From Nemertoderma westbladi (Eukaryota; Animalia; Xenacoelomorpha), in contig JAUCBJ010008936.1 of assembly GCA_032718475.1 (NCBI GenBank), positions 1 to 64,000 of the forward strand: a stretch of DNA of 64,000 nt. The letters are read 5' to 3'. The notes beneath the pieces were generated by a model that saw nothing but the letters and a program-made list of their open reading frames with translations, was not told the DNA's origin and ran no database searches. Positions 1,861 through 45,766 of this stretch are shown here, in pieces (position 1 is the first letter of the stretch; every line of letters begins with the position of its first letter). A program made the position numbers and the translations under genes.

Positions 1861-4800
1861 ATGGAGAGGGATATTAGAGCGCAACCGCGCAGAGGATTTA
1901 CTGCCAGAGAGGAGGCGGAGCTACCGTTCGCGCGACCGGGATGTAAAGATTCGAACGTTTACTACCATGGGCGGTCCGTGATGGAGCTAAACGGGAAATA
2001 CAAGCCGACTTATGATAAGGAATTACGGAGGGAAAGAATGAGAGCGTTGGGGGACCGGATGGAAGTTTTGCGGAGAGAGTATCGCACGCGGTATCCCTAC
2101 GACTTCGCTTTGGACGTGTGTGACATTAGCGCAGACCCGGACGAGGAAATCGCACGACTATACCATATGAATATGTATTTACGACACGAGGAGCCTCTAC
2201 CTGCAGTCCGAGACCAGTTCGACGGAATGCATCTGTACCGGAGGACTCGAGGTGAGGATCAGGAGACGCCGAAAGTCTTCAGCGTGTACAAGCTCTTCTA
2301 CAAGTGTGGTGAATGCATGAATAAACAAGACGTGGCGATTCCCGACCGATTAGACGAGCAACATCCGGAACCGATATTAACGCGATGTCCAGCTCACCAG
2401 TTCCTTAGATATAACGAGGGAGGTTACCCGATGAGCAACCCGATGATCAGTATCGACTTCAGCGGAAAGCGACCTCCGAGACCCATTACGCCGACCGTTA
2501 CGACATTAGATCCGTATACGGAGATTAAACCCTGTTCGACACCCAGTTTGATAGAGACGGCAGCGGCCATTTCGCTGTACCGAGCCTACAAGGATCTAGA
2601 GGCGCGGCGCGAAGCGGCGCGGGACTCGGGTACCAAACCCGCGGGTTTGGAGCTCTCGAGTCCCTGGACTGCGTTTACTTCACCTCACCGAGCGAGAAGC
2701 CTCACGCCTGAGCATCAGGACGACATAGACGCGTTGCGGCAGGAGGAGCGAGCGGCGAAGGCGAAAGAGTTATTTGAGAACAGGATAGCGGAGTATAATA
2801 AGACCGCGGATAGACATCAAGAGGAGACGAGGAGAGTGACCGGATTTGTTCCACAGGTCGTATCTCAACCCGGACCGGTGTATTATTCCGACGGCACCGA
2901 ACCTGCGATATTAGTAGATCATCCGGAGTCGCGAGAAGCGATACGATTCTTGCCGATGGTAAGAATGGCGGACCATTGGAACGTTGACTGTCTACGGGAA
3001 GTTTTATGCGCGAAGTTCTTGCGTGATGTCCCAATGCAGATCACAGATTACGACACGTTGGATAAGATTGGAGCTCCGGGGAAGGAGAGTAAGCTATTCG
3101 GATGGTTGGATAAGTACATCAAGGTATGGGTCGCGGTGGCTACATTCCCAGACGACGAGGAGGTAGACCAGACGTGGCTGAGGAGGAAGGGTTCTTATAC
3201 CCGATATGATGACCACAAGGCGATCGAGCGCATGTGGACCCCATCAGACGAGATTCAGCGTCAGTGGAGGAAAACGGAGGAATCACTGCAGGATTGGAGG
3301 GTGATGTTCTACGACAATGAAGGAGGGTCCCATCAGGAATGTTTGACCAGCAAGTGTATTCAAATTCGTGCGGCCGATGGTGTGACTCATGTGTTTATGC
3401 GTGTGAGGGCGGATCGAGAGAGACCGGAGCCCATCATAACGACACAATATCGGAAAGGGAAGGATCCTAGGGAACAGATTTTGGAGGTATGCAGGCGAGG
3501 AGGTATGCACGGAGCGGAGCGTATCGACGCCAGGATGCTACCCAAGAAAGTTAGAGAGGCTATTCTCAACCAAGATTACGTCAAGGTGGGATCGGGAGTC
3601 CAGAGCGATTTGGAGAGCGACTTCAACGCCATGACTGATCTGGAAGATAGATTGCCGAGACCGTTTGTCGACACCAAGCTATTGTTGCTATGGGCTCAGG
3701 ATATTGGAATTTATAGGGAGTATCCCAACTCTGCCAAGACTGGTATGGGCTTTATAGCACACTTGTTGTATAATTGGGACTTTAAGTTAAAGACGCAGAA
3801 GAAGTACGAGGAGGCGTATGGCGAATACAACACGCCACCGGGAGCGGAGTTCAAATCCCACTTCAAGCGGCAAGCGTTAGTGTATTGGAACATTTGCGCG
3901 CCACCCCGTGCGTCGCTACAATATTATTTGGTGCTTGAGTCGAACACGGTGACTTGTTTATTAGCGGATATCGTTGCGCGAGTTTTGAAGCGTCATCCAT
4001 TGGTATTCGGCGGAGATCAATACGTTCGCTCGAAAGGGGGAATCCAATCCGACGTGATGAAGCATTTCTTAACCCCGTTCTTCAACCAATCGTTAGAGAA
4101 TACGTCGATGGTGAGGAGAGGATTAGCGATATTCGAAGGAGTGTATCGACAGAACATCGGAGATTTGGGAGACCGACCGTCGATGGAATATCCGACGCCA
4201 GAAGCTTTGGAGAAGTGGTTCGGGAATCAAACCCGTGGGTTTGGTACTCCCTTCCACTCGGAGGCTCATAGACCTGTTAAGGAGGGCTGGCCGGAGACGT
4301 TAGTAGAGGTGTTCGGAGTAGATCTTCCGGTGGAGAAGACATATCCGAAACGAACGCGGGAGGAAATATTGGAGATAGAGGACAAGGGCGAGGATGTTTA
4401 CTTTGTTCCGGATCGACAACCGCTGACCGGAGAGGACGACATCGTATTAGACATTGGGAAGGAAGGAAGTGCGAAACCGATTGGAGACCTCATATACGAG
4501 AGGGCCTGGTTTCCACAAGCGCGTAGGTGCAAATTGTGCGGCAGCACAAGGCACAATCTAAAGTCGTGCGACGCGGTAGTAGAGGCGGCGCATAAGGTCT
4601 GTCGTTGGTGTAATGAGACCGACCATTCGTTTCACACGTGCACCGTCTTCATTTCTCAATGTGGATATTGTGGGGTAAAGGGACATCGTAGCGCGAGATG
4701 TCAGCTGCGAGATGATTCCTTTCAAAACCATAGCGCTAACCTACTTCGGGAGATGTTAGATAAGTGGGAGAGTGTGGCTGATTACCATATTCAAGCGCAG

Positions 4801-5568
4801 ATGCGTTGGTTACCATTTAAAGCGGGATATGGGTTTTGGGCGGTAGACCCATCGCATGTTGCGTACGAGCCATATCTACAATCGCTACCACAATATCAGG
4901 AACTCATCCTAACTGCTCAAGACCTTCCACAGAACACTGGAGTTATCGTAGTCCGAGAATACTTCAGACAATTGAATATGGATAACAAGTACACCTGGAA
5001 CTTCGTTGCTATTTGCGATCGCATCACAAAGGGTGTATTTACGGAGACTAGAAAAGTGGTACGCGCGCGAGGTGATTGGAGGATGGCGGCTATTCAATAC
5101 CGCAACGAATTCTTGTTGACTCATGTGCCAGTGGGTTCATTGACCGCTGAGAGGATACAGGAACAAAGGATCGCAGCGACCACAGCGACGACCGCTGGAG
5201 CTCAAGGCTCGCGGAAAGAACCAGGAGGAGAGGTCCAAGACAAGCGTCAAGTCAAGGACGATCACTATCATTCTATTATAGAAGCACAAAGATTGCAGCG
5301 CAAGGCGCAGGGAGCGTCTGAAAAAGCGCGTGTGCAACTGCAGAAGGAAGAGTTGGTGGAAGCGACCACGGGAGCGCGACAATTGGGACGAGGCCGAGGA
5401 AGAAGCACAAGCCGGGAGTCTGTCGGGGCTCAGGGAACGTCGTCGCCGGTTCCGGGGAGTGACGCCTCACGGACGCCGTCAACGGAGTCGACTGGAGGAC
5501 GATTGGTGTATCTGGGAAGAGGGCGAAAGAGAGGAGCGAGCCCAAAGAACCCAGGAGCGGGTCGATAA
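1861..5568 (+). CDS. ORF3 of element A: DEDDy-like 3'-5' exonuclease domain, three CCHC zinc knuckles and an RG-rich tail (1235 aa)
   Basis: Exo I VMFYDNEG (~3301-3324), LPKKVREAILNQDYVKVGSGVQSD (Exo II), FVDT, Exo III-like YLVLE. Knuckles CKLCGSTRHNLKSC, CRWCNETDHSFHTC, CGYCGVKGHRSARC (~4528-4700). Motif-for-motif homology with 24249-26831. Confidence 0.8.
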   Translation: MERDIRAQPRRGFTAREEAELPFARPGCKDSNVYYHGRSVMELNGKYKPTYDKELRRERMRALGDRMEVLRREYRTRYPYDFALDVCDISADPDEEIARLYHMNMYLRHEEPLPAVRDQFDGMHLYRRTRGEDQETPKVFSVYKLFYKCGECMNKQDVAIPDRLDEQHPEPILTRCPAHQFLRYNEGGYPMSNPMISIDFSGKRPPRPITPTVTTLDPYTEIKPCSTPSLIETAAAISLYRAYKDLEARREAARDSGTKPAGLELSSPWTAFTSPHRARSLTPEHQDDIDALRQEERAAKAKELFENRIAEYNKTADRHQEETRRVTGFVPQVVSQPGPVYYSDGTEPAILVDHPESREAIRFLPMVRMADHWNVDCLREVLCAKFLRDVPMQITDYDTLDKIGAPGKESKLFGWLDKYIKVWVAVATFPDDEEVDQTWLRRKGSYTRYDDHKAIERMWTPSDEIQRQWRKTEESLQDWRVMFYDNEGGSHQECLTSKCIQIRAADGVTHVFMRVRADRERPEPIITTQYRKGKDPREQILEVCRRGGMHGAERIDARMLPKKVREAILNQDYVKVGSGVQSDLESDFNAMTDLEDRLPRPFVDTKLLLLWAQDIGIYREYPNSAKTGMGFIAHLLYNWDFKLKTQKKYEEAYGEYNTPPGAEFKSHFKRQALVYWNICAPPRASLQYYLVLESNTVTCLLADIVARVLKRHPLVFGGDQYVRSKGGIQSDVMKHFLTPFFNQSLENTSMVRRGLAIFEGVYRQNIGDLGDRPSMEYPTPEALEKWFGNQTRGFGTPFHSEAHRPVKEGWPETLVEVFGVDLPVEKTYPKRTREEILEIEDKGEDVYFVPDRQPLTGEDDIVLDIGKEGSAKPIGDLIYERAWFPQARRCKLCGSTRHNLKSCDAVVEAAHKVCRWCNETDHSFHTCTVFISQCGYCGVKGHRSARCQLRDDSFQNHSANLLREMLDKWESVADYHIQAQMRWLPFKAGYGFWAVDPSHVAYEPYLQSLPQYQELILTAQDLPQNTGVIVVREYFRQLNMDNKYTWNFVAICDRITKGVFTETRKVVRARGDWRMAAIQYRNEFLLTHVPVGSLTAERIQEQRIAATTATTAGAQGSRKEPGGEVQDKRQVKDDHYHSIIEAQRLQRKAQGASEKARVQLQKEELVEATTGARQLGRGRGRSTSRESVGAQGTSSPVPGSDASRTPSTESTGGRLVYLGRGRKRGASPKNPGAGR

Positions 5569-6067
5569 TACATTATAGCACAGGGCGACAGACTCTAGAT
5601 ATATACATCATCGTCGCTCTGATGTATATTGTAGCATTTGGAAATCTTCGACTAGACTCATATACACTAGTTGAGTTATTTTGAATTTATATTATGAGAG
5701 AGGCGAAGGAAGTGATTGGGGAGACAAACCTGCGGGTTTGGCTTACTCCTTTCACTTGCCCTAGCAAAATTTTTTATATATTTGATTTTGTATGTAGTAA
5801 TCATTATGTAGTAAGAACGAACGAGAAACAATATTTTGTAAATTTAATTTGTATGTAATAATCGTTAAACAATGAGAGAGATAATATTTTGTAAATTTAA
5901 TTTGTATGTAATTCATTATGCAATATCTATAGCAATATTTTGTAAATAGTAGGACTTATAGTATCAAGTATTTAGATTAGTTGGAAGAAATTTATTTTGT
6001 TTTGTATACATCACCTTATACTCTTCTACAATTGGAGGGAAACATTATATGATTTCCCTTGGAGCGG

Positions 6068-7951
6068 TGTTACGGTATATGGCGCTGTATCCACATTATT
6101 AGTCATTATGCAGCATGCAATATTAGTCCGTTATACTGTACGTAATATTAGTCCGTTGTGCAGCATAATATTTTAGATAAGGCATAATTACGCAATGATA
6201 TTTAGATAGGGAAATCGAAACACCCATATATTTGAATCCATCCATTTTGTATAATATGTAGCCCTACCTACGTAATTTTGTATTAGGATATATGTAGATA
6301 GTTCCAGGGTAGCAAGTTTATTCGGACCCTGGATTTTGTGCTTGCTGATATTAGCATCAATAGGGCTAGCATATAGGGACGCTGTCCTGGCCATTCAGCA
6401 GCCAGGGACGTGAACCATTACCATATATGGTAATAATTTGAGGTTTGGGCAAGCAATAAGGCTACAATCCGGCCTCCTTATTGGACTAACTGCTTCCAGG
6501 TTGGTCTAATACTAGCACGGACTGGAGAGCCAATAGGAGAGCGATTGAGTCACCCTATTGCATCACCCCATCCGGATCACCTATAAATTGGCGGTGTGCC
6601 AGTAGAGCCTTACCTGTTATTCCTCACATGATCTGCTATCACCTTTGTACTTGCTGAGCTGTCCCTATCATTTTTGACGGATATTTTAGCGTATTTTCTG
6701 CAATTTGCTAATTTTGATTAGTTTCTTGAAATGATTTGCTAGTGCGATTACTCTTGATTGTGTTTCTCAATTAATTCCTTCGATTACTGCTAATTACAAC
6801 TGAACTATGATTTCTACCTTTTGATTAATGGTTCTATGTGATTCTTTTCTGCGCAATAATCCTAAGGGATTTCTGAGACTGTCAGACTTTGTGATTTGCA
6901 TGCGCCGCTACGGTAGCTATTAGCATAATGGAGGGCTAAGGCGCCAGTGGGCGGTGGGCACATCGGGGGGTTGAGCGACGAAGGGAGAGCGGAGGATTCA
7001 AAAGCGGGCAACGCTGGCGGGGGGTCACCGTTGCGGTCGGGTAGTTAACGCTGTGGTATGCAGACCAATCGCTGGTACAGTAATTAGGGGGCTGATGATC
7101 CAGGTTTCGTCTCTATTTAGTATTAGGGGGGCAGGAATCAGGTTAGTTAGGAGTCCTATATGTACCCGGGAGAGGCCTGCACGTATCACAACGTTGAGTG
7201 TGGAGTACGAGTAGTGAATCGCATAATTGTGGGCTATACAGTAGTTAACTGCATAATTGCGAACTGTGATTGCTGACGCTGATTGGTGTGTTACTGAAGT
7301 GTGCCTATGATTGTGAATGTTTAGGTAGGCGCTCTTTTCTCTTTGATTGATTTCTATTTCTTAGTTACAACAATTAGTTACTAATTAGGTCAAAGTAATA
7401 CGGCAATTTAGGCTATTACTAGCGAAACCTGTTGCGTGATAAATTAGAATTACGTATTCTGGAACTCTTAGTAATTAGTACGCTGTTAAATATTTGTGAC
7501 TGTAATTGATTAGTAAAAATTAAGAATTAGTACGCAGCATAGCGGAGAGTAGCTAAGGTAATAATTAGAGTACTGTAAACTATTCACGCTGAGCGGTTAT
7601 TTGCATTAGCGGGCAATCAGCTAGAACGCACTATTCGGCACACACGAAACGCTAGTAATTTGCTGGCCTAAAGCCAGCTGCAGGCAAGTTTAGACCCAGA
7701 GCGGTACTATCCACGAGAGACAAATACTGTGCCATTTTGATATTTAAATATTCTCGCATTCACACATACGTTAGAGAACCCCCAGTATTCGCGATTAGAA
7801 AAGACGTAGGCAATAGCGTGCTTTAATAGTGATAAATTTAGGCGTAGGAATACTCTGAGTGCAAAGCCTCTCGCACTCGTCTTAAGTAAGCTTAGGGAGC
7901 CGACTCGGGTTTATTGTTTGGTTATTCCCGCGTGGCTCATAGATTCGAACA
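6068..7951 (+). repeat. Putative 3' LTR of element A (~1.9 kb)
   Basis: TGTT...AACA ends, purine-rich ggagcgg just upstream, ccaat (~6530) and tataaa (~6583) inside, abrupt junction with the LINE at 7951/7952. The partner LTR is not in the window. Confidence 0.6.
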
Positions 7952-9070
7952 GATTTAGCCTACTAAGATGTACCTCCAGCTGTAGAAAAACAGAACGTTC
8001 TAGAATTTTAGATACAATACTTAAGATACTAACAGGTCTGTAATTACAGGGTTCTACTTTACTATTCTTTTTATACAGAGGAACAACCTTAGCTAATTTC
8101 AGTTCGTCTGGTACTACATTTTCTACGATAGAGTAATTAATACTAAAAGTAATGGGCACTTTAAGTACTTCAGCACCATCCTTAAGAAAACGGGCAGGTA
8201 TTAGGTCTAGACCGGTACTTTTTGAGGCTGATAGGCGAAGTAGATTTTGAAAAACGAAATCCTCAGAAACGGGTTTTAAAAATAACTTTTCTGAATTTTG
8301 TAACTTTTCTAAATAAAAATTATTTAGAGTTTCGGACCCTATACTATATTTATTACTTGATAACGGTAACTTCTTAACTAAATTAGAGGCAACATTAGTA
8401 AAATAATTATTAAATAAATTACTAACTAGAGTATGATCATGAATCAGCTCACCGTTATCTTGCAGAACAATATTCGATTTAGATTTAAGTTTTTTATAAC
8501 CTAAAGATTTTAGGGTAGACCATAGACTTTTAGGATTATCTTTATTCTCACTTATTTTGTTGTACAAATATTCAGATTTCGCTTTTTTTATTTCCCGTTG
8601 GACAAGGTTTCTATATTTGCAGTAATTATTATAATCAGCTAAAACACGGTATTTCCTAAATTTATACAAATAGTTATCTCTTTCTCTGAATATTACTAAG
8701 AATACCCGAGATCATCCAGGGCTCAGTGCGTTGTTTAAGACTAATTTCTTTAATTGGTGCTACAGTATTAAGTGCCTTTAGAAATATATCTTTAAAAACA
8801 GTGTACGCAAGGTTAATGCCAGCGGCCTTAAAACAGGGTTCCCAGTCAGAATTAACTAACAAACTTAAAAAGCGTTCCTTGCTGTAATTTTTCATAGACC
8901 TAACTGTTACTGTTTTATGATCCCCGAAAAAAGATTTTAGCTTAGACCTATTGGTAAAACCCCAGATTGAGAAATAATATCGGTATTATTACAAAGGATG
9001 TGATCTAGTAAAGTAGAAGTTTTACTGGTAATTCTGGTAGAATCTCGAATAATTTGTTTTCAACCAAACA
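7952..9070 (-). pseudogene. Degraded LINE (L2/CR1-group) ORF2: endonuclease end, linker and RT N-terminus, interrupted by element A
   Basis: STRITSKTSTLLDHIL, KSTGLDLIPARFLKD, AKVVPLYKK, NYRPVSILSIVSKILE; frameshifts between the ORF pieces. Confidence 0.85.
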
Positions 9071-10030: not shown

Positions 10031-10329
10031 TTACATGATTAACATATAAAATTTCCCTTCTATCATTCTATTCTCTTAATCACTGCTATGGACATCACTC
10101 TCAACATTTTTCTATATTTATTATCGGTACTAATAACTAATCTACTGTAATAACTAAATAAACAGGTGTTTTGTTTCATCACTAGCTTATAACCCCTAAT
10201 CGTCACTCACTGCTCCTGTAGAGCTGTAGTTGTGTTTGCATGATCGATTATAACAGTAAGCTATAGATAGATTATAGACCCTATATATATAAACAAATCA
10301 ACTATATATTATTATTACGGTATCACAAT

Positions 10330-11062
10330 CACCATGGCATATTGTGTGATTATATTCACAACTGATCCGGATCATCATATTAATGTCGAATATACTGGGG
10401 TTGTTTGCACTACGTGGCTGCAGCCAGGTCATAAAACTGTGGCTTACCCTGATTCAACCAGTGAAGTAATAGGAGTTTTTAATGATCTGATGTCTAAGCC
10501 GTTTTCAGATTTGAAATCCCCATTATTTTAAATTCTACTCTAGATGCAATAAAATACAAATTTCTTAAATTTTTAGCGAGGGTGGTTACCCCCTCCCCCC
10601 ACCCACCCCCCCCCCCCCCTTAATATACAACAAATAAGTGAATTCATTTTTTAAACAAAAAATATGCTTCAATCAGTCAAATGTACTATACATATTTGCA
10701 CATAAAATATAAAGCACTCTATCTATTATATTTAGATGAGTTACCCAAGGACAGAAATATAATTGACCTTTGTTTTAGCTAATTTTATTAACTCCGTAAA
10801 TTTCGTATGTAATGGCTCATGTAAGTCTTCCATGAGCTCCTTAATCCTCAACGATAATTCCGTTATTGCTTCGTTACATACTGTAACCACAGTAACCACT
10901 TTCTGACCAACTCGAGATACTGTTTCAACATTATTTGGGTCCATGGGAAAGCCGTAATCATCTCAGAATTTCCAACTATTAGTAGGTTTATCTTTCAGAT
11001 CAGTTGTATGAAAAATATTTTCAAGTTTATCGTAAAAATCATTGATGATGAAAGGGTTTTTT
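10330..11062 (-). mobile_element. Partial copy of a pogo/Tigger-like DNA transposon relic (inverted duplicate of 47266-47620 plus 48940-49310)
   Basis: Near-identical ORF translations at both loci (MAYCVIIFTTDP..., MDPNNVETVSRVGQKVV...), including the same poly-C tract. Confidence 0.7.
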
Positions 11063-12149
11063 ATATATACTTTTTACTTGGAGAAAAACACTTCCTGTAC
11101 GAGCCCACACTTTATACAGTGTAATAACAGTTTTATTGTAATTATATGTTACACACAGTTATTAATTAGAGACAATCACAGAATGCAATTATTAACGAGT
11201 GGGAGACACTCGTCAGAAATAGTGTTTCCACCACGGCTATTTCTCTATCCCCGCTCTCTGGGGGGAAAGAGTCAACACTGGGGCCATAATGGAAAAACTA
11301 CTTTGTCTTATCAATTATCATCTCTGCCATTCCAAGTGGCGCGGGCGGTGGCATTCTGTGATTGGCTCGCTCCTTCCTACATTACAAACCCATCACCATT
11401 AACCAAATAATAACATCACTAGTACTAGTTGGGAGATTGCCAAGATGCCCTTACTTCGATTTCCTACTTATATTATTAATATTGAATCTAAAGTCGTTAT
11501 ATTGAATGGGGCGAGCCTTAAGGTCCTTTTCAACGTTTTGAGAGAGGATAAAATTACTTTGTTGTATATATCATAATTTCTTTCGTTACAAACTCCCCCC
11601 AAAGTTAAGCTTGCTAAACTTTCAACAACAAAAAAAACAAAGAAATGATTTTGTACCAAAACTATAAAACCACCTCATGTTAGGATCAATTAAATTTAGC
11701 AATGATTATATTAGATCATCATTACGATTATCTAAGGACATGCGTAGAACATAGTCAACCACAATTATGAACAAGAATGGTGCAAAGTTGTAACATATCA
11801 ATACGGAATAACGTGAACACTGAAATAGAAACTGAGAACTGATATATCGATATCTTGTACGCTCCAGGCAGCCAGGACGGTAGAAAGGTGCCGGGATCCG
11901 AGGCTGGATAGGTTTATCCGATATGAGTAATCTGGTCGTTCAGTCATTAGATAATTCAGTAGTTAATCGTAAAACATCCAACCGCCGGGCGTACGCAATA
12001 GACAAGAACTACCCAGTCTAAAGACAGGTTTGTTATAAATTTGATAATTATAATAAAAATAGAATACTACATTTTATTACAATAATCGTTTTACATAATA
12101 TGTTTGTTAGAGGATAAAACGTAACGTTATTTCGCCACTTAATTATAGA

Positions 12150-15989: not shown

Positions 15990-18333
15990 TGCTACGCTGC
16001 TGGGTCCACTGGCACTGTGTATGGCTGACCATTTGATCTGAGGGCGCTATGCTGCTGGATCCACCGGCACTGTGTGTTACTGACCATTAGATCTGGGGGT
16101 GCTATGCTGCTGGGTCCACCGGCACTGTGTATGGCTGACCGTTAGATCTGGGGGTGCTATGCTGCTGGGTGCACCAGCACTGTGTATGACTGATCGTTAG
16201 ATCTGTGGGCGCTATGCTGCTGGGTCCACAGGCACTTTGTGTGGCTGACCGTTAGATCTGGGGGCGCTATGGTGCTGGGTGCGCCTGCACTGTGTATGGC
16301 TGACCGTTGGATCTGTGGGTGCTATGCGGCAGGGTCCACCGGCACTGTGTGTGGCTGACCCTTCGATCTGGGGGTGCTATGCTGCTGGGTCCGCCGGCAC
16401 TGTGTATGGCGGACCATTAGATCTGGGGCGCTATGCTGCTGGGTGCGCCTGCACTGTTTATGGCTGATCGTTGGATCTGTGGGCGCTATGCGGTGGGGTC
16501 CACCGGCACTGTGTGTGGCTGACCCTTAGATCTGGGGGTGCTATGTTGCTGGGTCCGCCGGTACTGTGTATGGCTGCCCGTTAGATCTGGGTGCGCTATG
16601 CTGCTGGGTCCACCGGCACTGTGTGTGGCTGACCATTAGATCTGGGGGTGCTATGCTGCTGGGTCCACCGGCACTGTGTATGGCTGACCGTTAGATCTGT
16701 GGGTGTTATGCTGCTGGGTCCGCCGGCACTGTGTGTGGCTGACCGCGGAGGGCGCTATGTTGCTGGGTCAGCTGGCACTGTGTATGGCTGATCGTTAGAT
16801 CTGTGGGCTCTATACTGCTGGGTCCGCCGGCACTGTGTATCATGGCTGACCATTAGGTCTATGGGCGCTATGCTGCTGGGTCCACCGGCACTGTGTATGG
16901 CTGACAGTTAGATCTGTGGGCGCTATGCTGCTGGGTCCGGCGGCACTGTGTATGGCTGACCATTAGGTCTGAGGGCGCTTTGCTGCTGGGTGCGCCATCA
17001 CTGTGTATGGCTGATAATTAGAATTGGGGGCGCTAGGCTGCTGGGTCCGCCAGCACTGTGTGTGGCTGACCCTTAGATCTGGGGGTGCTATGCTGCTGGG
17101 TCCGCCAGCACTGTTTATGGCTGATCGTTAGATCTGTGGGCGCTATGCTCCTGGGTCCGCCGGCACTGTGTGTGGCTGACACTTAGATCTGGGGGTGCTA
17201 TGCTGCTGGGTCTGCCGGCACTGTGTATGGCTGCCCATTAGATCTGGGTGCGCTATGCTGCTGGGTCCACCGGCCCGGCACTGTGTATGGCTGACCGTTA
17301 GATCTGTGGGCTTGATGCTGCTGGGTCCGCCAGCACTGTGTATCATGGCTGACCATTAGGTCTGTGGGCGCTATGCTGCTGGGTCCACCGGCACTGTGTA
17401 TGGCTGACAGTTAGATCTGTGGGCGCTATGCTGCTGGGTCCGCCGGCACTGTGTATGGCTGACCATTAGGTCTGAGGGCGCTATGCTGCTTCGTGCGCCG
17501 TCACTGTGTATGGCTGATAATTAGAATTGGGGGCGCTATGCTGCTGGGTCCACCGGCACTGTGTGTGGCTTACCATTAGATCTGGAGGTGCTATGCTGCT
17601 GGGTCCACCGGCACTGTGTATGGCTGACCGTTAGATCTGTGGGTGTTATGCTGCTGGGTCCGCCAGCACTGTGTATGGCTGATCGTTAGATCTGTGGTCG
17701 CTATGCTGATGGGTCCGCCGGCACTGTGTATGGCTGACCCTTAGATCTGGGGGCGCTAGGCTGCTGGGTTCACCCGCACTGTGTATGGCTGACCCTTAGA
17801 TCTGTGGGCGCTATACTGCTGGGTCCGCCGGCACTGTGTGTGGCTGATCGTTACATCTGTGGGTGCTATGCTGCTGGGTCCGCCGGCACTGTGTATGGCT
17901 GACCATTAGGTCTGAGGGCGCTATGCTGCTGGGTGCGCCGGCACTCTCTATGGCTGACCATTAGATCTGAGGGCGCTATGCTGCTGGGTGCGCCGGCACT
18001 GTGTGTGGCTGACCATTAGGTCTGAGGGCTCTATGCTGCTGGGTGCGCCTGCACTGTGTATGGCTGACCATTAGATCTGTGGGTGCTATGCTGCTGAGTC
18101 CACCAGCACTGTGTATGGCTGATCGTTACATCTGTGGGCGCTATGCTGCTGGGTGCGCCGGCACTGTGTATGGCTGACCATTAGATCTGTGGGTGCTATG
18201 CTGCTGAGTCCGCCAGCACTGTGTATGGCTGATCGTTACATCTGTGGGCGCTATGCTGCTGGGTGCGCCGGCACTGTGTATGGCTGACCATTACATCTGG
18301 GGGCGCTAGACTGCTGGGTCCGCCGGCACTGTG
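15990..18333. repeat. 55-bp minisatellite, roughly 42 copies
   Basis: Unit gctatgctgctgggtccgccggcactgtgtatggctgaccattagatctgtgggc repeated head to tail with point variants. Confidence 0.97.
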
Positions 18334-19009: not shown

Positions 19010-19100
19010 TTGGTTGATCCCTTGGTTGTATGTTCGAGCCCCGCCTGGATCCACTCAGCCTTTCCTTAACTGGCTTCAATCAAATGAGAACCAGTTGAAT
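19010..19100 (+). mobile_element. tRNA-derived SINE fragment
   Basis: B-box-like gttcgagccc followed by ccactcagcctttcc...aaatgagaaccag, resembling a conserved central domain of metazoan SINEs. Confidence 0.45.
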
Positions 19101-19261
19101 TACTGAGATAGGAGTAGGGTGAGTGAGGGAGACTTGACTTTAGGGGAGACTTGATTTTTTTTAATAACTCAAAAACTATTATAAATTATTTAACAATACC
19201 ATACAAAAATGTGTAAAATACATGTAGGCTACACCCGTGCAACAATGTTTTATGACCTGTT

Positions 19262-20890
19262 GGTTATTTTTTGTTTTATTTTTTTTAATATTATTATTAA
19301 TTAAGCCAAAAGGATGGCACTTCTACAGTAGGAACGAGAAATTAGGCTAAAATTACATCAATAACACACACAACTATACAAATTATTATAAAATATATAC
19401 AAAATAAAATAAAATGCAGTTCTTCCATTTACATGGGATCATTTTGTATTTGCCCAGTTCACAAGGGGTGCATCATTCTTGTGACAATTTAAAATGTGGT
19501 ATCGGCTGGCTCTGGCGTCCCACAATCGGCAGACGCATTCATCTGCAGTCTCGTGAAACGCGGGGTTTTTACAAATTAGGTGATGAAACCCATGTATAGA
19601 CACCCGTGTGATGATGTGCCGGTTTTTATAGTTTGAGGTTCTCCATTTTGGGTTTGTAAATCCGGGAGAACGCCAGAATTCTGGAATTATTTTGTTGTTC
19701 TTCGAATTGACCCCAGTTTTGTATTTATTAAATTCGGGAGTTTTGGGGAGATTGAGTTTTTGTTGCAGATCCATACACAGGTTCTTGCTTCCACTCAGCG
19801 CCAGGACAAGCCTGTTCTGAGCAGATTTGTGTATTGACAGAACTCTTTTAAGGTACGATGACTTAATCTTGTCCAGGTTCTCAAAGTCCTTTGATTTCAG
19901 AAATTCCCATATAACAGTGAGCCAATAACTGATGATTGGTTCGATTTTGATTGTAAATAACTTGATTGCTGTGTTGAGAGATAAAAGGCTGGGTTGTTTG
20001 ATAGAATGGATCACTTTAAACGATTTGCATGTGGTGTTAATTATGTGTCGAGTGAATGAAAGGGTTGGTTGTAGTACTATTCCGAGATAAGTGTAATGAT
20101 TTACTATTTCAACTGGTTGACCATTGTAGAAAAACTTATCAGCCCCACATAGGCGCCCCCCTCTTCTGAATTTGATGATTTGCGATTTTCGCAGGTTTGC
20201 AGTAAGGCCGTTGATGGAAGCCCATCTATCTGCTGGTGGCATTGAGTGCAGCCTGTAAAGCGTCCTTGTTATCAGAGAAGAACAAAAGGTCATCAGCGAA
20301 TAAGAATACCACAATTGCTTCGTCTACTCTCGTAATAAACATTATTAAGTCCCATATGTATAATATAAAAAGAAACGGGCCTATCGCCCTGTTGGCATCC
20401 TTGAGTTTGCCTCACAGGATTAGATTTCCTCAAACCATCAGAAATATATATGAAATTTGGGCTTAGAATACATTTAATTAGACGCAATAATCTCCCATTT
20501 ACCTTGAACACGTGTTCCAATTTGTACAGTACTTTAGATCGTGGCACCGAATCGAAGGCTTTTTGGAAATCGATAAAGGCGGCATAAAGAGGTTTCCTTG
20601 GTTCTGATAGATTTCCTTTGATCCGAGTTAGTAGACGCTGCAACGGTTGAATGGTTGATCGACCTGGCATGAAACCAAACTGGTCTTTAGGAATCTTAGA
20701 ATGGAGGAACTCACGGAGCCGCTTCCCAACAAGCCTTGTAAGCACCTTGAAAGGGTTACACAGAAGGGCTATACCTCGATAGTTGTTCTCTTCATCTCTT
20801 GAACCTTTACCTTTATATAGGACCTTTAGGATGCTATGTTTCCATGTAGAAACCAATGACCCAGTTACCAAACAAATGTTAAATAGCATT
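19262..20890 (-). pseudogene. 5'-truncated, frameshifted non-LTR retrotransposon (RT plus C-terminal Cys/His motif, A-rich 3' end)
   Basis: NYRGIALL, QFGFMPGRST, AFIDFQKAFDSV, QGCQQG, YTYLGI, CVCRLW...YHILNC; A-rich tail on the minus strand at 19262-19290. Confidence 0.88.
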
Positions 20891-21299
20891 GTCCACAGAT
20901 AGAGTGTTAGAGATATTGATCCCTTTAATGTTTCGTAAGGGAGATTATCTAGTCCATCTGACTTCCCATTCTTCTTCTTTAAGAATGGGAATTTGTTTTA
21001 TTGTCAATAAACGTTTTCTGTGTTCAAAAGTAAATTTTTACCCTTTACAACTAATGAAAATTCGCATCCTTATTTTACTGTATGTTACAATAATTGTAAT
21101 TCACAACATGTGTTAACAACTAATTATTGCACTCTCCTGCCATATATTGTTTTCCAGTTTTGGTTCAGCCGTTTTGAAATTATATCAATTAATCGAAAAA
21201 AAAGCCCGTGTGGGGAGACATGACGCTTGAGTGTGAGGGAGACTTGAACCCGCCAATGCTGTCGTCTACCTAGAGTTACACCCATGTAGAAAGCCATTA

Positions 21300-21519
21300 C
21301 ACCACATGAAAACAAATAAGTTGGTGCCAGTTCCCAAGAAGGACAACCTAACACTCTATGGTTCTTTTCGGGGAATCTCATTGATCTCGATTGCTGCAAA
21401 AGCTATACACAATAGAATTCTATTAAATCGCATCAGGGATCCCATTGAGAGACTGCTCCGTGGAAATCAGAATGGGTTCCGTAAAGGTCGTGGGACCATG
21501 GAACCCATTTTGGCATTAA
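21300..21519 (+). pseudogene. RTE-like LINE RT fragment
   Basis: LVPVPKK, FRGISLISIAAK, NRILLNRI, QNGFRKGRGT; homology stops abruptly at ~21519. Confidence 0.75.
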
Positions 21520-24082
21520 TTTCGGACCCAGATTGCCACGTGGTTGACGAGCGGCTGGGAAAATCGGAGACTCTTGTTTAGAGAACAGATCCGATATTGC
21601 TCAGTCCGTTTCCAACCGCGCCTTTCTGGTTCTGGAATTTGTGGAGCAAATGACGTCACCACGGACACCACGGTATGATACAGAGGACGTACATGACTGC
21701 ATACAGGGGGTGATGACTGTACCATGTGATGAGGCTCTGTTCCAATGGCAAAATTACACGACACCGGACAGGGGGTTGGACCAGTACCACAATTACAGTT
21801 TGCCATTTGGGAATGACGCCTTTTACTGAACTTAAAACTGACAAAACACTGTGTAGGGACTTTAGTTAGGATACTTTGTGATTCCTCGCTGACTCACCGA
21901 ACTTTACACTAATAGATAGGAACCTGACAGCCAAGACGTTACTGACAGAGGTGATGGGGGATCTAAAAACATGGGTTAAACACAAACTGACACATTCAAC
22001 AGACAAATTAATTCAGGTCAAACTGACTGAACTCAATGTACCGAAGACAGATGGGGTGTTCCATTTTTTTTGTCATGCTTTATTCCTGTTCCATATATAA
22101 CACAATTAGTCATTGGTTTATTATTGGTCATTAGTCTATACAGTTTTCTGTTATAAACAAATTAGACTTAATAACATATTAGTATATTATTTACAACAGT
22201 TATTTTTTTGATTAAACAACGTAGTAAGTAGTTCAAGTAGTATAGCACATTTCATCGTGACATGAATAAACAACGGTTAACTTAATCTCACCATACGAGC
22301 TGTTAACAACCTGTGAACTATAAGTACAGGTACAGAAATCGTCATACATTAAAATGGTAAAAACACATTTTCATTTTTAAGTTATTCATATTCGTTCGTT
22401 TTATTATTATACTATTATTTTGGTTTAGAAAGACAGCTGCAAAGTGCAAATTAAGTGTTTTACAAAGTTCCCATCCACTTTGCTATATTATTTTTGTTGC
22501 CGTTATCCCTACACCAGGGGGAAAAACGCCGATGCTGGAGACGTGACTTAACAGACCACCGAGCCCCGGCCAGTCACCGGATATTGATTGTGGGGAGGGA
22601 ATATTTTCTGAGATGCAAGTTTGCGGTTGATAAAAAGCTGCATTAGTTGGATATACTCTTTAATGTAACTTCTTATAGTTGAAACCTGATTAAGAATAAT
22701 TTTGGGCTTCCCCAAATCAATATACACCAAATATTCACAATAATTATACACGATAATATAAATCCCTACGGTATATTATTTAATAACCCACTGTTCGCTC
22801 AGAATTTTAGCCTACCTAATGTTCCCCAGATTTTCCCTCGGTCCCAGTCTTAGTGCCGTAGTGTCGGTGTCGGTCGACCCTGTCGCGTGTCCGTTCCACC
22901 CCTCACGAACCCCGAAGGGAACGATCATCGAGAACCAGCACGGCTTGGCTAAGGGTCGGTCCAGTCGGTAGACTCTGTCGCGTATCCGTACCACCCCTCT
23001 CGAACCCCGAAGGGTTCGGTTATCGAGAACCAGTACGGCTTGGCTAGGAGTCTGTCGTGTCGGTGGACCCGTTCGCGTGTCCGTTCCACCCCTCACGAAC
23101 CCCGAAGGGTTCGATCATCGAGAACCAGAACGGCTTGGCTAGGGGTCCGTCGGTTCATCACAGAAACCCAACCACCTAGGCTTTCCGAGTCCGTTTCAGG
23201 CTCGTAGTCGCTTCGGCAGCCGAGAAACTGCTCCGAACAGTCGGTAGGCCAGTAGAGTCTAGTCGAGTCTAGTCCTTTGTCTTTCGACCCCATCGCGTGT
23301 CCGTTCCACCCCTCACGGACCCCGAAGGGTTCGATCATCGAGAACCAGTACGGCTTGGCTAAGGGGTCTGTCGTCGGTTCCCGTCGCAAATCCCAGTACA
23401 AGCAGTCAGCGTTCCGAGTTCTTTTCAGTCTCGTAGTAGCTGCCGTTGACCAGAGACCGCTAAGGGCAGTTCTCGTCAAACCCGTCCTGTGGCCAGCCCT
23501 TTCGCATGTCCGTCCCACCCCTCACGAACCCCGAAGGGATCGGTCATCGAGAACCAGTACGGCTTAGGTCAGGGGGCAGTCGTTAGTTGGCCACCCGTTC
23601 GCGTGTCCGCTCCACCCCTCACGAACCCCGGGGTTCGATCATCGAGAACCAGAACGGCTTGGCTACTAAGGGGCCGTCGGTGCCCGTCGCAAATCCCTGA
23701 CACAAGCAGTCAGCGGTCCGAGTTCTTTTCAGTCTCGTAATGGCTGCTGTTGGCCAGGGACCGCTAAGGGCAGTCCTTGTCCTTTAGGCCTGGCGCATTA
23801 CCAAATCCACCCCTACAGGCAGCAGGAAGTTGGCCAGGGCCTAATAGTACTCAGGCTAACCTGAATACTGCTTGCATTTTCCATCCCCCCTGGCCCTTAT
23901 AACTATGAAATTATTCCCGTACCCTGTAAGTTGCCCCAAAGTTCGCCCATAAATCGCCCCCAGTTTATTGAATGTGCCCAAAACCCATGGTCCCGCACCC
24001 AGTAGCAATATCGGAATAATCAATTTTAATAAAATACAAAAATATTCAACTCGCGTTATGGAAAGTTGAAATACCGCAAACA
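21520..24082 (-). repeat. Putative 3' LTR of element B (~2.5 kb), containing the structured repeat array
   Basis: Starts TGTT right after a G-run PPT; TATA-like gttataag at ~23896-23903 (-). The distal end is uncertain because there is no clean AACA terminus. Confidence 0.5.
22876..23785 (-). ncRNA. Array of six ~82-nt structured RNA units (A1-A6) interspersed with three copies of a second structured unit (B1-B3)
   Basis: A units at 22876-22957, 22971-23052, 23065-23148, 23286-23368, 23496-23577 and 23589-23675. On the minus strand A1-A5 have a c(UUCG)g tetraloop (lost in A6). Closing stems covary (gaccc/gggtc vs gactc/gagtc; ccgtac/gtacgg vs ccgttc/gaacgg). Confidence 0.65.
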
Positions 24083-24248
24083 GTCCCCCCCAATGACCTT
24101 CGTGAAGTCTGTCGGTCGATTGAGTTTGCGTAGGTCATTCCCAATATAAAAAACCCAAATTTAATATTGCATAGTTTTTTAATTAATTTGGCCTAGAGTT
24201 TGTATAAAAATAAATGTTCGATAAATGTTCCTGGAATATCCCAATCCA

Positions 24249-26831
24249 CTATTTCTTTTTCTGGTAAGCCTTTCGTCTCTTCGCCCGTCGACTCTCATCG
24301 ATCGCTATGGCTGGTAGAGGAGCGTCAACATCCATTGTGAGTAACACTTCGGCTTGTCTCCTGGCGGCTCTTCCTTTCGAAGGCATCGGGATCATGTCGG
24401 TTCGTCTTTCCTCTAGGAACCATTCTCCGTCACCGAACTCCTCTTTATACGAGTATAATCGTCTAATAACTTCGAATGGGCCGAATAATCCAGCGCTCAG
24501 TAGCAGATCCACGTAATGGAAAGGTAGCGTGGCCGACGTGTGGAGGCGTTCCGGGAAGGAGAAATATCCGCACGCCATCTCCTGCGCGATATTCCGAGCG
24601 TTTCTCCGAAACTTGGTCTTTAAGTGGCTGTTTGCGTATGTCTCAAACATGACCATATTGCCCATAGCGGTTACGTCTTTGGTAGGACATTTGATATAGC
24701 AGCGGGGGCTAGCGGAATGTCCACGGAAACCGCACGTGGTGCAGAGGTTATAAAGGATCGGACAGACCGAAACGTCGTGGCCCGATATCGCGCAGTATGG
24801 GCAATAGAGTATCCCGAGGAGCTGGAGGCAAGAATCGGTAACCCGATTCCTTCTGCCGCGTGGGCACTGCTCCGAGCCGCAGTCGCCGCATACCTCCAAC
24901 TGCGTTTCTCGACCGGGGAATATCGGAATCGGGACGCCGACGTAGTATTCGAGTCGTCGGTCGCTCTTCGGAATATTCTCGGTGGTCGGTAGCCCGCGGA
25001 ATGCTAGGCTTTTGCGTAGTATGTTCTCGCTCCGATAACCCTCTTTGTGTCCCGCTGGTCTCAACTCGGATGACCGTTTCTGGCGGTGGATCCATTCAGT
25101 TTGCTCGGCGTACCAACGGGTTAGTCGCATAGGGTCCTGAGGAACGGCGGGTGTAGTAGCCACCGCTGGTCGGCGAAGAGGTGCCGGGGTTTTCGACGGG
25201 GGGATACCGAGGAGATCGTCGGGTGTCGGCGCATCGCTGGGGCCTTCCTCGACCAGTATCGCTGAGCGGGTCCGTTGGTGGCTGGTACTCGGAATCTCCG
25301 ACGACCAATCTTCGCCGCCCGGGAAAGGATACGGGGATAACCGTTGGCATATGTCGCCGAAGTCGCTCAATGCAGCTGTAGTGGCTACCTCTCTCGCGGG
25401 GCTACCGGAGCCGCGTGGGGTGTAGACGCCTGCTCTCTTCATCGGTTCGGCCGAGGCAACCCGTTTGGCGGCCGGTCCGTACGCGGCCTCCGGCTCGAGT
25501 TGTCGCTTCGGGGTGGAGAGTAGAACACCCTCGTTTAGCCATATCTCTTCCCCTTCCGAAGAGATCAGAGGCTCCTCCGCACCGAGAAGTTCGGTAATCG
25601 TAGGAATGTCGTAAGGTCCGCTCTCGTCCCAGGAATCGATAACGGCGGGCGTTTTCGATTCTCCCGGTGTAATGTTCTCGACCGCTTTAAACGCATGGTT
25701 TATAACCTCGTTCCAGTCGTAGTCGACGAAGGAAAGGGGGACCGCCGTAATAAGGTTATCGAGAGTTCTACAGATAAACTTAGCGACGGTGTAGCACTCC
25801 ATAACGACGTAGATATAGCTCCGTCGATCGGGATTCTCCCACCTTTGGTGTATCGTCCACTTCCGATCGACGTCCTTCCATCGACCCTCTCGCTCGCTCT
25901 TTATCTCTAATCCCGGGTTTCCGCCGTATATTTTATTATAGTCCCGGTATTTCTGGGGTTTGAAGTCGATACCGCCGTTTAGCACAGCGAGGTAGCCGAT
26001 CCCGGATTTCGTCGGTCTCACTTCTTGGAATCCTCGCATGAATTCGGCGAATCTTAACCAGGCTAGCAGCGTTTGAGTGTCGATGCAATGGCTAAGTGCG
26101 TTGAGGTCGTTTCGTCGGTTTCTTCCTGCGGGAGCGTTCGCGTAGTCGTTCCGGACGTCCGCCTTGATATCCGACCCGATTTTAATGACGTCGAAGTCGA
26201 AGAGGATCTTTTGGATTTCCGGAGGCAGCAACCAGATCGCTCCGGCTGCCCGCACTTCCTGTCTGGGTGTCGGGAATATTTGGCACACCAGTACCAAACC
26301 GTCCAGGGTTCCGAGGACGATGACTAAGGATCGACCGTATTCTTTCGCCCCGTACTTTTCCTGGTAGTCGTCGCGGTTTTGGATAATCGATACGCGTTCC
26401 TCTCGAAGCGTCGCCGTACACTCTGACAGGTTTCCCCAGTGGGCGAGGTACGTACTCTTGTCGTCGACGAAACTTTGACATCTCACCAACGTAATCGCTT
26501 CCGAGGTGGGCGTCGCGTTTCCCTCGTTGTCGTAGATCAAACATCGGGATCTGTAGACGCTCTGCCAGAACGTTTCCCAAAACGACGAATCGTCCCCTCC
26601 GGTTGCCTTTGCGTTCCGAGTTCTTTTCAGTCTCGTACTAGCATCGGCTAACCGGAGGGCTTGTAGATTCTTAGAATCCGGTCCCTCTCGCCCGGTGAAT
26701 TTAATGACTCGCACGTTCTCATTTAGCAGGGTGCTCCAATTTGTATCAAAGTCAGGGGATCCGGGTTGCGAATATTCCAGTAGATCTATCGTGTTACGTA
26801 ATTCGCCGATAATTTGGCGATTTGGGTCCAT
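24249..26831 (-). CDS. ORF3 of element B: DEDDy-like 3'-5' exonuclease domain plus zinc knuckles (860 aa)
   Basis: CLIYDNEG, LPPEIQKILFDFDVIKIGSDIKAD, CIDT, KSGIGYLA...DFK, YVVME; CGDCGSEQC, CPYCAISGHDVSVC, CTTCGFRGHSASPRC. Homologous to 1861-5568. Confidence 0.8.
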   Translation of the reverse strand: MDPNRQIIGELRNTIDLLEYSQPGSPDFDTNWSTLLNENVRVIKFTGREGPDSKNLQALRLADASTRLKRTRNAKATGGDDSSFWETFWQSVYRSRCLIYDNEGNATPTSEAITLVRCQSFVDDKSTYLAHWGNLSECTATLREERVSIIQNRDDYQEKYGAKEYGRSLVIVLGTLDGLVLVCQIFPTPRQEVRAAGAIWLLPPEIQKILFDFDVIKIGSDIKADVRNDYANAPAGRNRRNDLNALSHCIDTQTLLAWLRFAEFMRGFQEVRPTKSGIGYLAVLNGGIDFKPQKYRDYNKIYGGNPGLEIKSEREGRWKDVDRKWTIHQRWENPDRRSYIYVVMECYTVAKFICRTLDNLITAVPLSFVDYDWNEVINHAFKAVENITPGESKTPAVIDSWDESGPYDIPTITELLGAEEPLISSEGEEIWLNEGVLLSTPKRQLEPEAAYGPAAKRVASAEPMKRAGVYTPRGSGSPAREVATTAALSDFGDICQRLSPYPFPGGEDWSSEIPSTSHQRTRSAILVEEGPSDAPTPDDLLGIPPSKTPAPLRRPAVATTPAVPQDPMRLTRWYAEQTEWIHRQKRSSELRPAGHKEGYRSENILRKSLAFRGLPTTENIPKSDRRLEYYVGVPIPIFPGRETQLEVCGDCGSEQCPRGRRNRVTDSCLQLLGILYCPYCAISGHDVSVCPILYNLCTTCGFRGHSASPRCYIKCPTKDVTAMGNMVMFETYANSHLKTKFRRNARNIAQEMACGYFSFPERLHTSATLPFHYVDLLLSAGLFGPFEVIRRLYSYKEEFGDGEWFLEERRTDMIPMPSKGRAARRQAEVLLTMDVDAPLPAIAIDESRRAKRRKAYQKKK

Positions 26832-32878: not shown

Positions 32879-32879
32879 T

Positions 32880-45738: not shown

Positions 45739-45766
45739 TAAGTCCGACGCTAGAGGGACACCTAAG

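What the first reader, a model, noticed from the sequence alone, without database searches (positions are those of the whole stretch)
1861..26831. Two divergent BEL/Pao retrotransposons carry a homologous exonuclease-zinc-knuckle ORF3 in the env position
Seen: both elements have a long uninterrupted ORF between pol and the 3' LTR (1861-5568 +, 24249-26831 -). The proteins align motif by motif: YDNEG/YDNEG, LPKKVREAILNQDYVKVGSGVQSD/LPPEIQKILFDFDVIKIGSDIKAD, FVDTKLLLLW/CIDTQTLLAW, KTGMGFIA..DFK/KSGIGYLA..DFK, YLVLE/YVVME. Both then have tandem CCHC knuckles and a shared downstream block (WESVADYH...GYGFW / FETYANSH...CGYFS). Established: this motif order matches DnaQ-fold DEDDy exonucleases of the RNase D/WRN/Mut-7/EXD type; BEL/Pao elements normally have no ORF or an env here. 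From recall, DEDDy ORF3s are reported in bdelloid rotifer retroelements, but I know of no description of this exonuclease-plus-knuckle architecture in BEL/Pao. Inference: retention in two strongly diverged families implies long-term selection. Possible roles are RNA 3' trimming, interference with piRNA/siRNA silencing, or cDNA proofreading/end processing.
Basis: partly seen in the sequence, partly recalled or inferred. Interest (0 to 1): 0.88.

Follow-up and report, generated by a model that had tools for sequence, protein, structure and literature searches.

The report
BEL/Pao retrotransposon exonuclease-knuckle accessory gene
Two distantly related jumping-gene families in this animal DNA carry, where an envelope gene would sit, a conserved extra gene whose product is predicted to be an RNA-trimming enzyme with zinc-finger RNA grips, extending an enzyme cargo described in rotifer elements to a different retrotransposon family in a different protein layout.

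Summary
Confirmed. Both ORFs are open, follow a BEL/Pao pol and precede an LTR-like end. They are homologous (BLASTP E 4e-11). Five more relatives turned up among 1.84 billion representatives; four of the five share the exonuclease + CCHC knuckles + conserved C-terminal block. The family profile hits EXD2 (E 2.8e-5) and Trypanosoma RNase D, which has the same exonuclease + CCHC layout. A low-confidence model of domain A matches only DnaQ-fold nucleases (best Z 8). All seven proteins keep acidic residues at the four DEDDy positions and the Tyr. Exo III is Glu in four, including both window proteins, and Exo I in B is assigned by sequence only. Family A shows purifying selection (15 of 19 listed differences synonymous); copy B does not (4 of 10) and is rearranged. 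New here: four copies of one stem-loop with a knuckle-type NGNG loop lie along element A's ORF3 region, and B repeats a different hairpin. Best reading: a knuckle-clamped 3'-5' exoribonuclease that likely docks on the element's own RNA; activity and substrate are untested. Exonuclease ORF3s are known from bdelloid elements; I found none in print for BEL/Pao. The relatives' genomic context could not be checked.

The parts
1..1092 (+). Element A: 3' end of BEL/Pao pol (integrase core, DUF5641); the rest lies before the window
1093..1860 (+). Element A: 768-nt pol-ORF3 spacer; a branch-point-like CTAAC followed by CAG near 1782-1799 may be a splice acceptor (inference, untested)
   Evidence: sequence read directly
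1861..5568 (+). ORF3-A, 1235 aa: ~450-aa N-terminal extension of unknown kind, exonuclease-like domain, linker, three CCHC knuckles, conserved block, low-complexity basic tail
3247..3996 (+). ORF3-A DnaQ/DEDDy-like domain (aa ~463-712); Exo I D485/E487, Exo II D583, Exo III Y689/E693
4528..4701 (+). ORF3-A three CX2CX4HX4C knuckles (aa 890-947)
4756..4830 (+). ORF3-A post-knuckle family block ([FW]E..A..[GH]...G[FYW][FW]), present in 6 of 7 proteins
1504..1547 (+). Stem-loop copy 1 (CAAACC-YGYG-GGTTTG apex on a 10-bp lower stem), in the spacer
2621..2664 (+). Stem-loop copy 2, inside ORF3-A
   Evidence: (z -4.8)
4215..4258 (+). Stem-loop copy 3, inside ORF3-A in a different codon phase from copy 2
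5712..5755 (+). Stem-loop copy 4, between the ORF3 stop and the LTR
6068..7951 (+). Element A inferred 3' LTR, ~1.9 kb, TGTT...AACA
   Evidence: sequence ends; depth step and loose ends at 7952; no second LTR in window
22495..24082 (-). Element B inferred 3' LTR, ~1.6 kb, TGTT...AACA after a G-rich tract; holds 95-bp repeats with UUCG-capped hairpins; distal end uncertain by ~15 nt
24249..26831 (-). ORF3-B, 860 aa: exonuclease-like domain, Pro-rich linker, knuckles, conserved block
25737..26582 (-). ORF3-B DnaQ/DEDDy-like domain (aa ~84-365); proposed Exo I D101/E103 (sequence only), Exo II D225, Exo III Y341/E345
24699..24890 (-). ORF3-B knuckle array (aa ~648-711): one degenerate and two CCHC knuckles
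26611..26643 (-). GAAA-capped hairpin inside ORF3-B that recurs three times in the element B LTR (23186-23204, 23415-23433, 23719-23737)
26832..28078 (-). Element B pol-ORF3 spacer with three ~83-nt structured repeats (27380, 27555, 27722)
28079..32872 (-). Element B gag 3' part (Cys-His boxes) and pol: protease, RT (YVDD), Peptidase_A17, integrase, DUF5641
32873..34757 (+). Element B 5' part of gag, inverted relative to pol in this copy; other copies leave the window sequence at 32872 and 34757
   Evidence: loose ends

Best explanation
ORF3 is a conserved accessory gene of two BEL/Pao families, under purifying selection in family A, and its product is predicted to be a metal-dependent 3'-5' exoribonuclease whose zinc knuckles likely grip single-stranded RNA and likely dock it on the element's own transcript. 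Shown: the ORFs, their place after pol, their homology, a wider protein family, conserved acidic residues, selection in family A, and four copies of a covarying stem-loop along element A's ORF3 region. Predicted: the DnaQ fold. Inferred: ORF3 is made from a separate (spliced or subgenomic) message; two metal ions are held by Exo I D/E, Exo II D and Exo III E; the knuckles hold the RNA upstream of the active site, as in Trypanosoma RNase D; the repeated hairpins are family-specific landing sites; and the enzyme trims or removes RNA 3' ends in the element's ribonucleoprotein (its own transcript ends, primer or cleavage fragments, or silencing RNAs that pair with it), which raises the element's replication success.
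For: Family profile hits EXD2 at E 2.8e-5 with Exo I and Exo II in register and TbRND 7c42 at E 8.2e-7, mostly through its knuckles but with the exonuclease also aligned. Model of domain A: all 50 listed VIA matches are DnaQ-fold proteins, led by Pol nu exo (Z 8.1, rmsd 4.4, 199 aligned) and Nibbler (Z 8.0, rmsd 4.5, 183) (fold membership judged from titles and my own knowledge). Atlas neighbours carry PF01612. Exo II D and Exo III Y are invariant in 7 of 7 proteins at 18-33% pairwise identity, Exo III is acidic in 7 of 7 (4 E, 3 D), and a DxE is present in 7 of 7. 15 of 19 listed differences in ORF3-A are synonymous against 31% expected, p 2e-5; 0 of 24 listed indels fall in an ORF; a 327-nt net deletion seen in three runs keeps the frame. 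Stem-loop: 4 copies, 0 expected in 100 shuffles, 5 pairs with two-sided changes, covariation reached by 1 of 500 shuffles, two copies inside the ORF in different codon phases. HIV NC knuckles bind the Gs at positions 2 and 4 of GGAG and GGUG tetraloops (PMC7599994, passages), the same positions as in YGYG. TbRND's CCHC domain strongly raises RNA binding and cleavage (PMC7797062 section 13).
Against: No activity or expression data. Models are weak: mean pLDDT 51.5 (A) and 44.5 (B) from 7 sequences; Foldseek had no hit at E <= 0.001; Z 8 is near the tool's own common range. In B only the half from residue ~190 on matched the fold (best Z 5.7), and alignments to the outside relatives place B's RVSII...LGTLDG segment where Exo I should be, leaving YDNEG upstream, so B's Exo I register is unresolved. 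Exo III Glu departs from DEDDy; my search found a D/E exchange described at Exo II (PMC7968707, PMC5408684) but not at Exo III. Copy B's listed differences are 4 synonymous of 10 (P 0.36 under neutrality). The hairpins could be Gag or host-protein sites; B's hairpin has a GAAA loop, not NGNG, and weak covariation; the A structure was derived from the same four copies, which favours it. DEDD-fold neighbours include DNA exonucleases and inactive RNA binders.
Confidence: 0.45

Rival explanations
1. ORF3 is a freely acting counter-silencing RNase that shortens or destroys host piRNA/siRNA or their precursors, and the hairpins are unrelated Gag or export signals.
For: Closest folds include Nibbler, EXD1 and TbRND, which act in small-RNA or guide-RNA pathways (recalled for Nibbler; PMC5408684 discussion for EXD1 and mut-7; PMC7797062 abstract for TbRND). 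Arenavirus DEDD nuclease suppresses host defence (PMC7968707 abstract). Both families are abundant in the laid runs.
Against: No small-RNA data; mature piRNAs are 2'-O-methylated and protein-bound (established knowledge); fold neighbours are tied within 1-2 Z with DNA polymerase exonucleases; PMC5408684 found no clear link between DEDDy ORF3 and copy number.
Confidence: 0.2
2. The exonuclease fold is catalytically weak or dead and serves, with the knuckles, as an RNA-binding adaptor for export, localisation or packaging, like Egalitarian or EXD1.
For: Egalitarian is hit by profile (E 0.022) and fold (Z 6.9); Exo III is Glu in A and B; large insertions near Exo I; dispersed hairpins resemble a cis-acting export or packaging signal.
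Against: All four acidic positions and the Tyr are kept across seven proteins at ~25% identity, unlike the dead homologues (recalled).
Confidence: 0.2
3. ORF3 edits cDNA inside the particle: it removes mismatched or untemplated 3' nucleotides during reverse transcription or prepares ends for integrase.
For: Top fold matches include polymerase proofreading domains, WRN and TREX; EXD2 is the best profile hit; knuckles bind ssDNA as well (established for NC).
Against: Not fused to pol and no packaging signal identified; most BEL/Pao elements replicate without it (PMC8742986, PMC3118150); the exonuclease + CCHC precedent is an RNase.
Confidence: 0.1
4. ORF3 is a captured host gene carried as a neutral passenger.
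For: Copy B's differences look neutral; the five outside relatives could be cellular genes because their context is unknown.
Against: Intronless, open over 2.6-3.7 kb, same position in two families whose integrases are 37% identical, synonymous excess in A, indels excluded from ORFs.
Confidence: 0.04

Closest known systems
DEDDy ORF3 of bdelloid Juno and Vesta LTR retrotransposons and Athena/Terminon elements (PMC5408684; abstract to discussion read)
   Same: RNase D-like DEDDy exonuclease in a third ORF after pol, no membrane domain, one acidic position changed, function untested.
   Different: Those carriers are rotifer Juno/Vesta lineages, not BEL/Pao; their change is DEED (third residue), here DEDE (fourth); the text mentions knuckles only in gag and pol, while here three knuckles and a conserved block follow the nuclease.
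Trypanosoma brucei RNase D, TbRND (PDB 7C42; PMC7797062 abstract, section 13 and passages read)
   Same: DEDDy exonuclease followed by tandem CCHC knuckles; best PDB hit of the full family profile; fold match Z 6.8.
   Different: Cellular mitochondrial enzyme with four knuckles on a 28-aa linker; here three knuckles on a 180-280-aa linker plus an extra C-terminal block, in a mobile element. The profile score comes mostly from generic knuckles, so convergence is likely.
EXD2 / Nibbler (Mut-7) / EXD1 / Egalitarian exonuclease domains
   Same: Best profile hit (EXD2) and best fold hits (Nibbler, EXD1, Egl); same motif order including K[VI]G.G/S...D.
   Different: Only ~10-14% structural identity; host genes without knuckle arrays (recalled); the donor cannot be named.
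Belpaoviridae (BEL/Pao) env-like third gene (PMC8742986 whole text; PMC3118150 passages)
   Same: Same genomic slot between pol and the 3' LTR.
   Different: No signal or transmembrane segment in A (max hydropathy 1.34) and only a mid-domain strand in B (2.15); an intracellular nucleic-acid enzyme. LTRs of 1.6-1.9 kb exceed the 0.2-1.2 kb given for the family.

Membership tests
BEL/Pao (Belpaoviridae) carrier elements | Pol order protease-RT-RNase H-integrase with Pao-specific domains | tested here: met
   B: Asp protease, YVDD, Peptidase_A17 E 1e-37, Integrase_H2C2, DUF5641 E 2e-29; A: DUF5641 E 1e-17 and 37% identity to B integrase, only the 3' end is in the window
BEL/Pao (Belpaoviridae) carrier elements | Two LTRs, PBS and target-site duplication | tested here: inconclusive
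   Only one LTR-like end per element; A cut by the window, B 5'-truncated; no genome held
BEL/Pao (Belpaoviridae) carrier elements | RT phylogeny inside Belpaoviridae | not tested
   A's RT is outside the window; no reference RT set was fetched
DnaQ/DEDD 3'-5' exonucleases | DnaQ (RNase H-like) fold | tested here: met
   A: 50 of 50 listed VIA rows are DnaQ-fold, Z up to 8.1, spanning model residues 17-316; profile to EXD2 E 2.8e-5. B: 45 of 50 rows, Z up to 5.7, C-terminal half only. Models are low confidence.
DEDDy subgroup | Exo I DxE | tested here: inconclusive
   Met in A and the five relatives by alignment; in B YDNEG matches A (16 of 2000 shuffles) but is not placed by the model
DEDDy subgroup | Exo II D | tested here: met
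   Invariant in 7 of 7
DEDDy subgroup | Exo III YxxxD | tested here: not met
   YxxxE in A, B, P0003, P0007; YxxxD in P0005, P0006, P0008. The window proteins are DEDEy variants, so they are filed as DEDDy-like, not canonical members.
DEDDy subgroup | Two-metal 3'-5' exonuclease activity | not testable with these tools
   Needs biochemistry
Bdelloid retroelement DEDDy ORF3 pool | Sequence clusters with Juno/Vesta/Athena ORF3s, DEED motif | tested here: inconclusive
   DEED is not met (Exo II is D in 7 of 7); clustering could not be tested because those sequences were not retrieved
TbRND-type ZFD-containing RNase D | Exonuclease followed by tandem CCHC knuckles | tested here: met
   A, B and 4 of 5 relatives; P0005 ends before the knuckles
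TbRND-type ZFD-containing RNase D | Orthology of the exonuclease domain | tested here: inconclusive
   Exonuclease part scores only 6.9 bits against TbRND versus 22.8-26 against EXD2
Retroelement env | Signal peptide, fusion peptide, C-terminal transmembrane anchor | tested here: not met
   Hydropathy scan; no env family in Pfam

The most novel reading that the evidence does not exclude
ORF3 and the dispersed hairpins form a self-recognising protein-RNA system: each family's knuckles read its own repeated hairpin and tether an active exonuclease to the element's RNA, where it destroys silencing RNAs or slicer fragments before they feed piRNA amplification. That would be a retrotransposon-encoded, sequence-addressed counter-defence enzyme shared by an undescribed BEL/Pao lineage.
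Probability: 0.15. Interest if true: 0.88.

Novelty: new variant of a known kind. Interest (0 to 1): 0.64.

Why it matters
BEL/Pao replication is poorly understood and its third gene is listed as env-like of unknown function (PMC8742986). An old, selected nuclease in that slot shows that exonuclease cargo is not a rotifer oddity and gives a soluble, assayable protein with a candidate RNA ligand. It makes a standing question testable: what LTR elements gain from carrying their own 3'-5' exonuclease, and whether animal retrotransposons encode enzymes against small-RNA silencing.

Tried and rejected
No whole genome is held, so copy-level dN/dS, paired LTRs and further families could not be examined. 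Word-indexed homologue searches found nothing for either ORF and only P0003 itself for the alignment. Of 6 hits in the representative search, P0004 (fibronectin-III repeats) was dropped as spurious, leaving 5; P0009 is a near-identical member of the P0006 cluster. The one metagenome locus, L001, is a bacterial chance match to an 18-aa stretch. Viral contigs gave none for three queries. The flanks of the five relatives could not be fetched, so whether they lie in BEL/Pao elements is open. A third profile hit at the window end (E 0.0075) lacks the motifs and is rejected. The 7-sequence tree has no supported branch. No RNA holder listed; X4 is only guessed to be RNA and covers spacer, ORF and LTR alike, so it was not used for expression. 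Rfam has no match at E <= 1 in 1-35000. The hairpin model found no further strong copy in the window, none in element B. PDB and PHROGs gave nothing for the N-terminal 450 aa of A or the full proteins. No complex prediction was run because no protein partner is claimed. Laid depth is summed over contigs and was used only to see continuity and boundaries, not copy number.

Full report
Observation. The two ORFs are as described: 1861-5568(+), 1235 aa, and 24249-26831(-), 860 aa. They align at E 4e-11 over the central domain and E 1e-5 over the knuckles; the local score of 131 compares with a maximum of 65 in 300 shuffles. Each follows a pol gene with the BEL/Pao domain DUF5641, and B also shows protease, YVDD, Peptidase_A17 and integrase. 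The integrase regions are 37% identical, the ORF3 cores 25%.

Element anatomy. Neither copy has two LTRs in the window. A starts before base 1. In B the 5' part of gag (about 32873-34757) is inverted and nothing LTR-like precedes it; contigs of other copies leave the window sequence at 32872 and 34757. The 3' LTRs are inferred: 6068-7951 and 24082-22495, both TGTT...AACA. Laying four public runs (at most three samples) shows thousands of near-identical contigs over pol, spacer, ORF3 and LTR in both elements. In run X1 summed depth is 38-93 thousand over ORF3-A against 52-74 thousand over its pol, and 16-27 thousand over ORF3-B against about 1 thousand in the flanks. This is not a copy number, but it shows ORF3 is a regular part of both families rather than a local insertion.

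Selection. Of the 19 differences that one search lists inside ORF3-A (its best-supported 40 rows; 343 more were not shown), 15 are synonymous where 31% is expected, p 2e-5. Of the 10 that one search lists inside ORF3-B (631 more rows not shown), 4 are synonymous, which fits neutral decay of this rearranged copy. None of the 24 listed indels lies in an ORF (72 more not shown), and a deletion in the N-terminal extension of A seen in three runs removes exactly 109 codons.

Family. A profile of the two domains searched against 1.84 billion representatives gave 6 hits; one is a spurious repeat protein and five are true relatives of 472-715 aa from unnamed ENA, Logan and NCBI records. Four of the five carry the knuckle array and the same [FW]E..A..[GH]...G[FYW][FW] block; the fifth, on a 2.2-kb contig, ends earlier. 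A profile of the five alone finds A and B at E 1e-23 to 1e-25 in the six-frame window, though the five were found with A and B, so this is not independent. All pairs are 18-33% identical and the tree is unresolved: an old family, with A and B no closer to each other than to the rest. Their genomic context could not be read.

Fold and active site. The family profile aligns to EXD2 from the strand before Exo I through Exo II (E 2.8e-5), to Egalitarian (E 0.022) and to TbRND. Atlas neighbours of both domains carry PF01612 at scores 0.90-0.91, a range that shuffled proteins reach 4-10 times in 100. The model of domain A (mean pLDDT 51.5) has no significant Foldseek hit, yet all 50 listed VIA matches are DnaQ-fold proteins, led by Pol nu exo, Nibbler, diDNase and Pop2. 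The model of B (44.5) matches the same fold only from about residue 190 on. Exo II Asp and Exo III Tyr are invariant in 7 of 7; Exo III is Glu in four and Asp in three; a DxE is present in all. In B the only candidate, YDNEG, is shared exactly with A but is followed by about 55-65 extra residues, part of which resembles the segment that precedes Exo I in the relatives; a partial duplication is possible and the register is unresolved. Retention of carboxylates at all four positions at this divergence favours catalysis (inference; I put activity at about two in three).

RNA hairpins. CAAACC-YGYG-GGTTTG occurs four times, all in element A (1517, 2634, 4228, 5725), with none in 100 shuffles. Each sits on a longer stem in the same register: 88% of cells pair, five pairs change on both sides, and 1 of 500 shuffles reaches the covariation score (the structure came from these copies, which favours it). 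Two copies lie inside ORF3 in different codon phases, so the constraint is on the nucleic acid. HIV NC knuckles bind the Gs at positions 2 and 4 of GGAG and GGUG tetraloops (PMC7599994, passages), the pattern of this loop. Element B instead shares a GAAA-capped hairpin between ORF3 and three LTR repeats, with weak covariation. Rfam knows neither. Whether ORF3, Gag or a host protein binds them is untested.

Mechanism. The best-supported reading is a TbRND-like enzyme: knuckles hold single-stranded RNA and feed its 3' end to a two-metal site. In TbRND the CCHC domain is needed for binding and for efficient cleavage (PMC7797062 section 13). The hairpins suggest the enzyme acts on or at the element's own RNA. 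Rivals are a free counter-silencing RNase, a non-catalytic adaptor, a cDNA editor and a neutral passenger, scored above.

What is known. DEDDy ORF3s are described in bdelloid Juno and Vesta elements and Terminons, with a DEED motif and no demonstrated activity (PMC5408684, parts 1-3 of 5 read plus passages; PMC6431247 and PMC6338049 passages). Belpaoviridae are described with gag, pol and an occasional env-like gene (PMC8742986 whole text; PMC3118150 passages with no occurrence of 'nuclease'). Ten full-text searches, judged from their listings, showed no report of an exonuclease ORF3 in BEL/Pao or of an exonuclease-knuckle ORF3. The library lacks most subscription journals and Repbase notes, and I read no supplements (the BEL/Pao sequence files of PMC3118150 may hold relatives). 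PMC7968707 and PMC4538837 were seen as passages. Two earlier unchecked notes of this scan report Rrp6-like and DEDDh cargo in other LTR families, which makes exonuclease capture look recurrent and lowers surprise.

Verdict. A real, old accessory gene; a new variant of a known kind: new carrier family, new domain layout, a DEDE-type active site and candidate RNA ligands. Interest 0.64.

Noticed in passing
window 1517, 2634, 4228, 5725 (+): Four dispersed copies of one covarying stem-loop with a YGYG tetraloop in element A, two inside ORF3 in different codon phases.
   Followed up: yes
window 26617-26635 and 23186-23204, 23415-23433, 23719-23737 (-): A hairpin inside ORF3-B recurs three times in the LTR; the ORF3 copy is flanked by AGUA/GAA, which resembles a loop-E or sarcin-ricin bulged-G motif (recalled).
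   Followed up: partly
window 22867-23680 (-): Element B LTR holds five or six ~95-bp repeats that fold into long stems, several capped by UUCG; no Rfam match.
   Followed up: partly
window 27380-27804 (-): Three ~83-nt structured repeats in the pol-ORF3 spacer of element B.
   Followed up: partly
window 32873-34757: 5' part of element B gag is inverted relative to pol and carries 3.8 nearly identical in-frame 84-bp repeats (33821-34137).
   Followed up: partly
window 1861-3210 (+): ORF3-A has a ~450-aa N-terminal extension with a CxxC...C..H motif and no database match; some copies lack 109 codons of it in frame.
   Followed up: partly
window 6068 and 24082: The two inferred LTRs begin alike (TGTTACGGTAT and TGTTTGCGGTAT) and are longer than the 0.2-1.2 kb given for the family.
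   Followed up: no
window 52166-57301 (-): A Ty3/Gypsy element with 241-bp LTRs 99% identical and no third ORF; pol is split into two frames near 53600-53750.
   Followed up: no
window 43472-46535 (-): PIF1-like helicase remnants, probably a Helitron or similar element; its surroundings (47265-49311) match 10332-11064 as inverted copies at 96-98%.
   Followed up: no
window 15991-18333: 55-bp GC-rich satellite, 42.5 copies; further 24-bp arrays at 50640-51188 and 59104-59347 and an 84-bp array at 51464-51753.
   Followed up: no
window 19439-20997 (-): Broken non-LTR-type reverse transcriptase fragments (RVT_1 E 3e-16).
   Followed up: no
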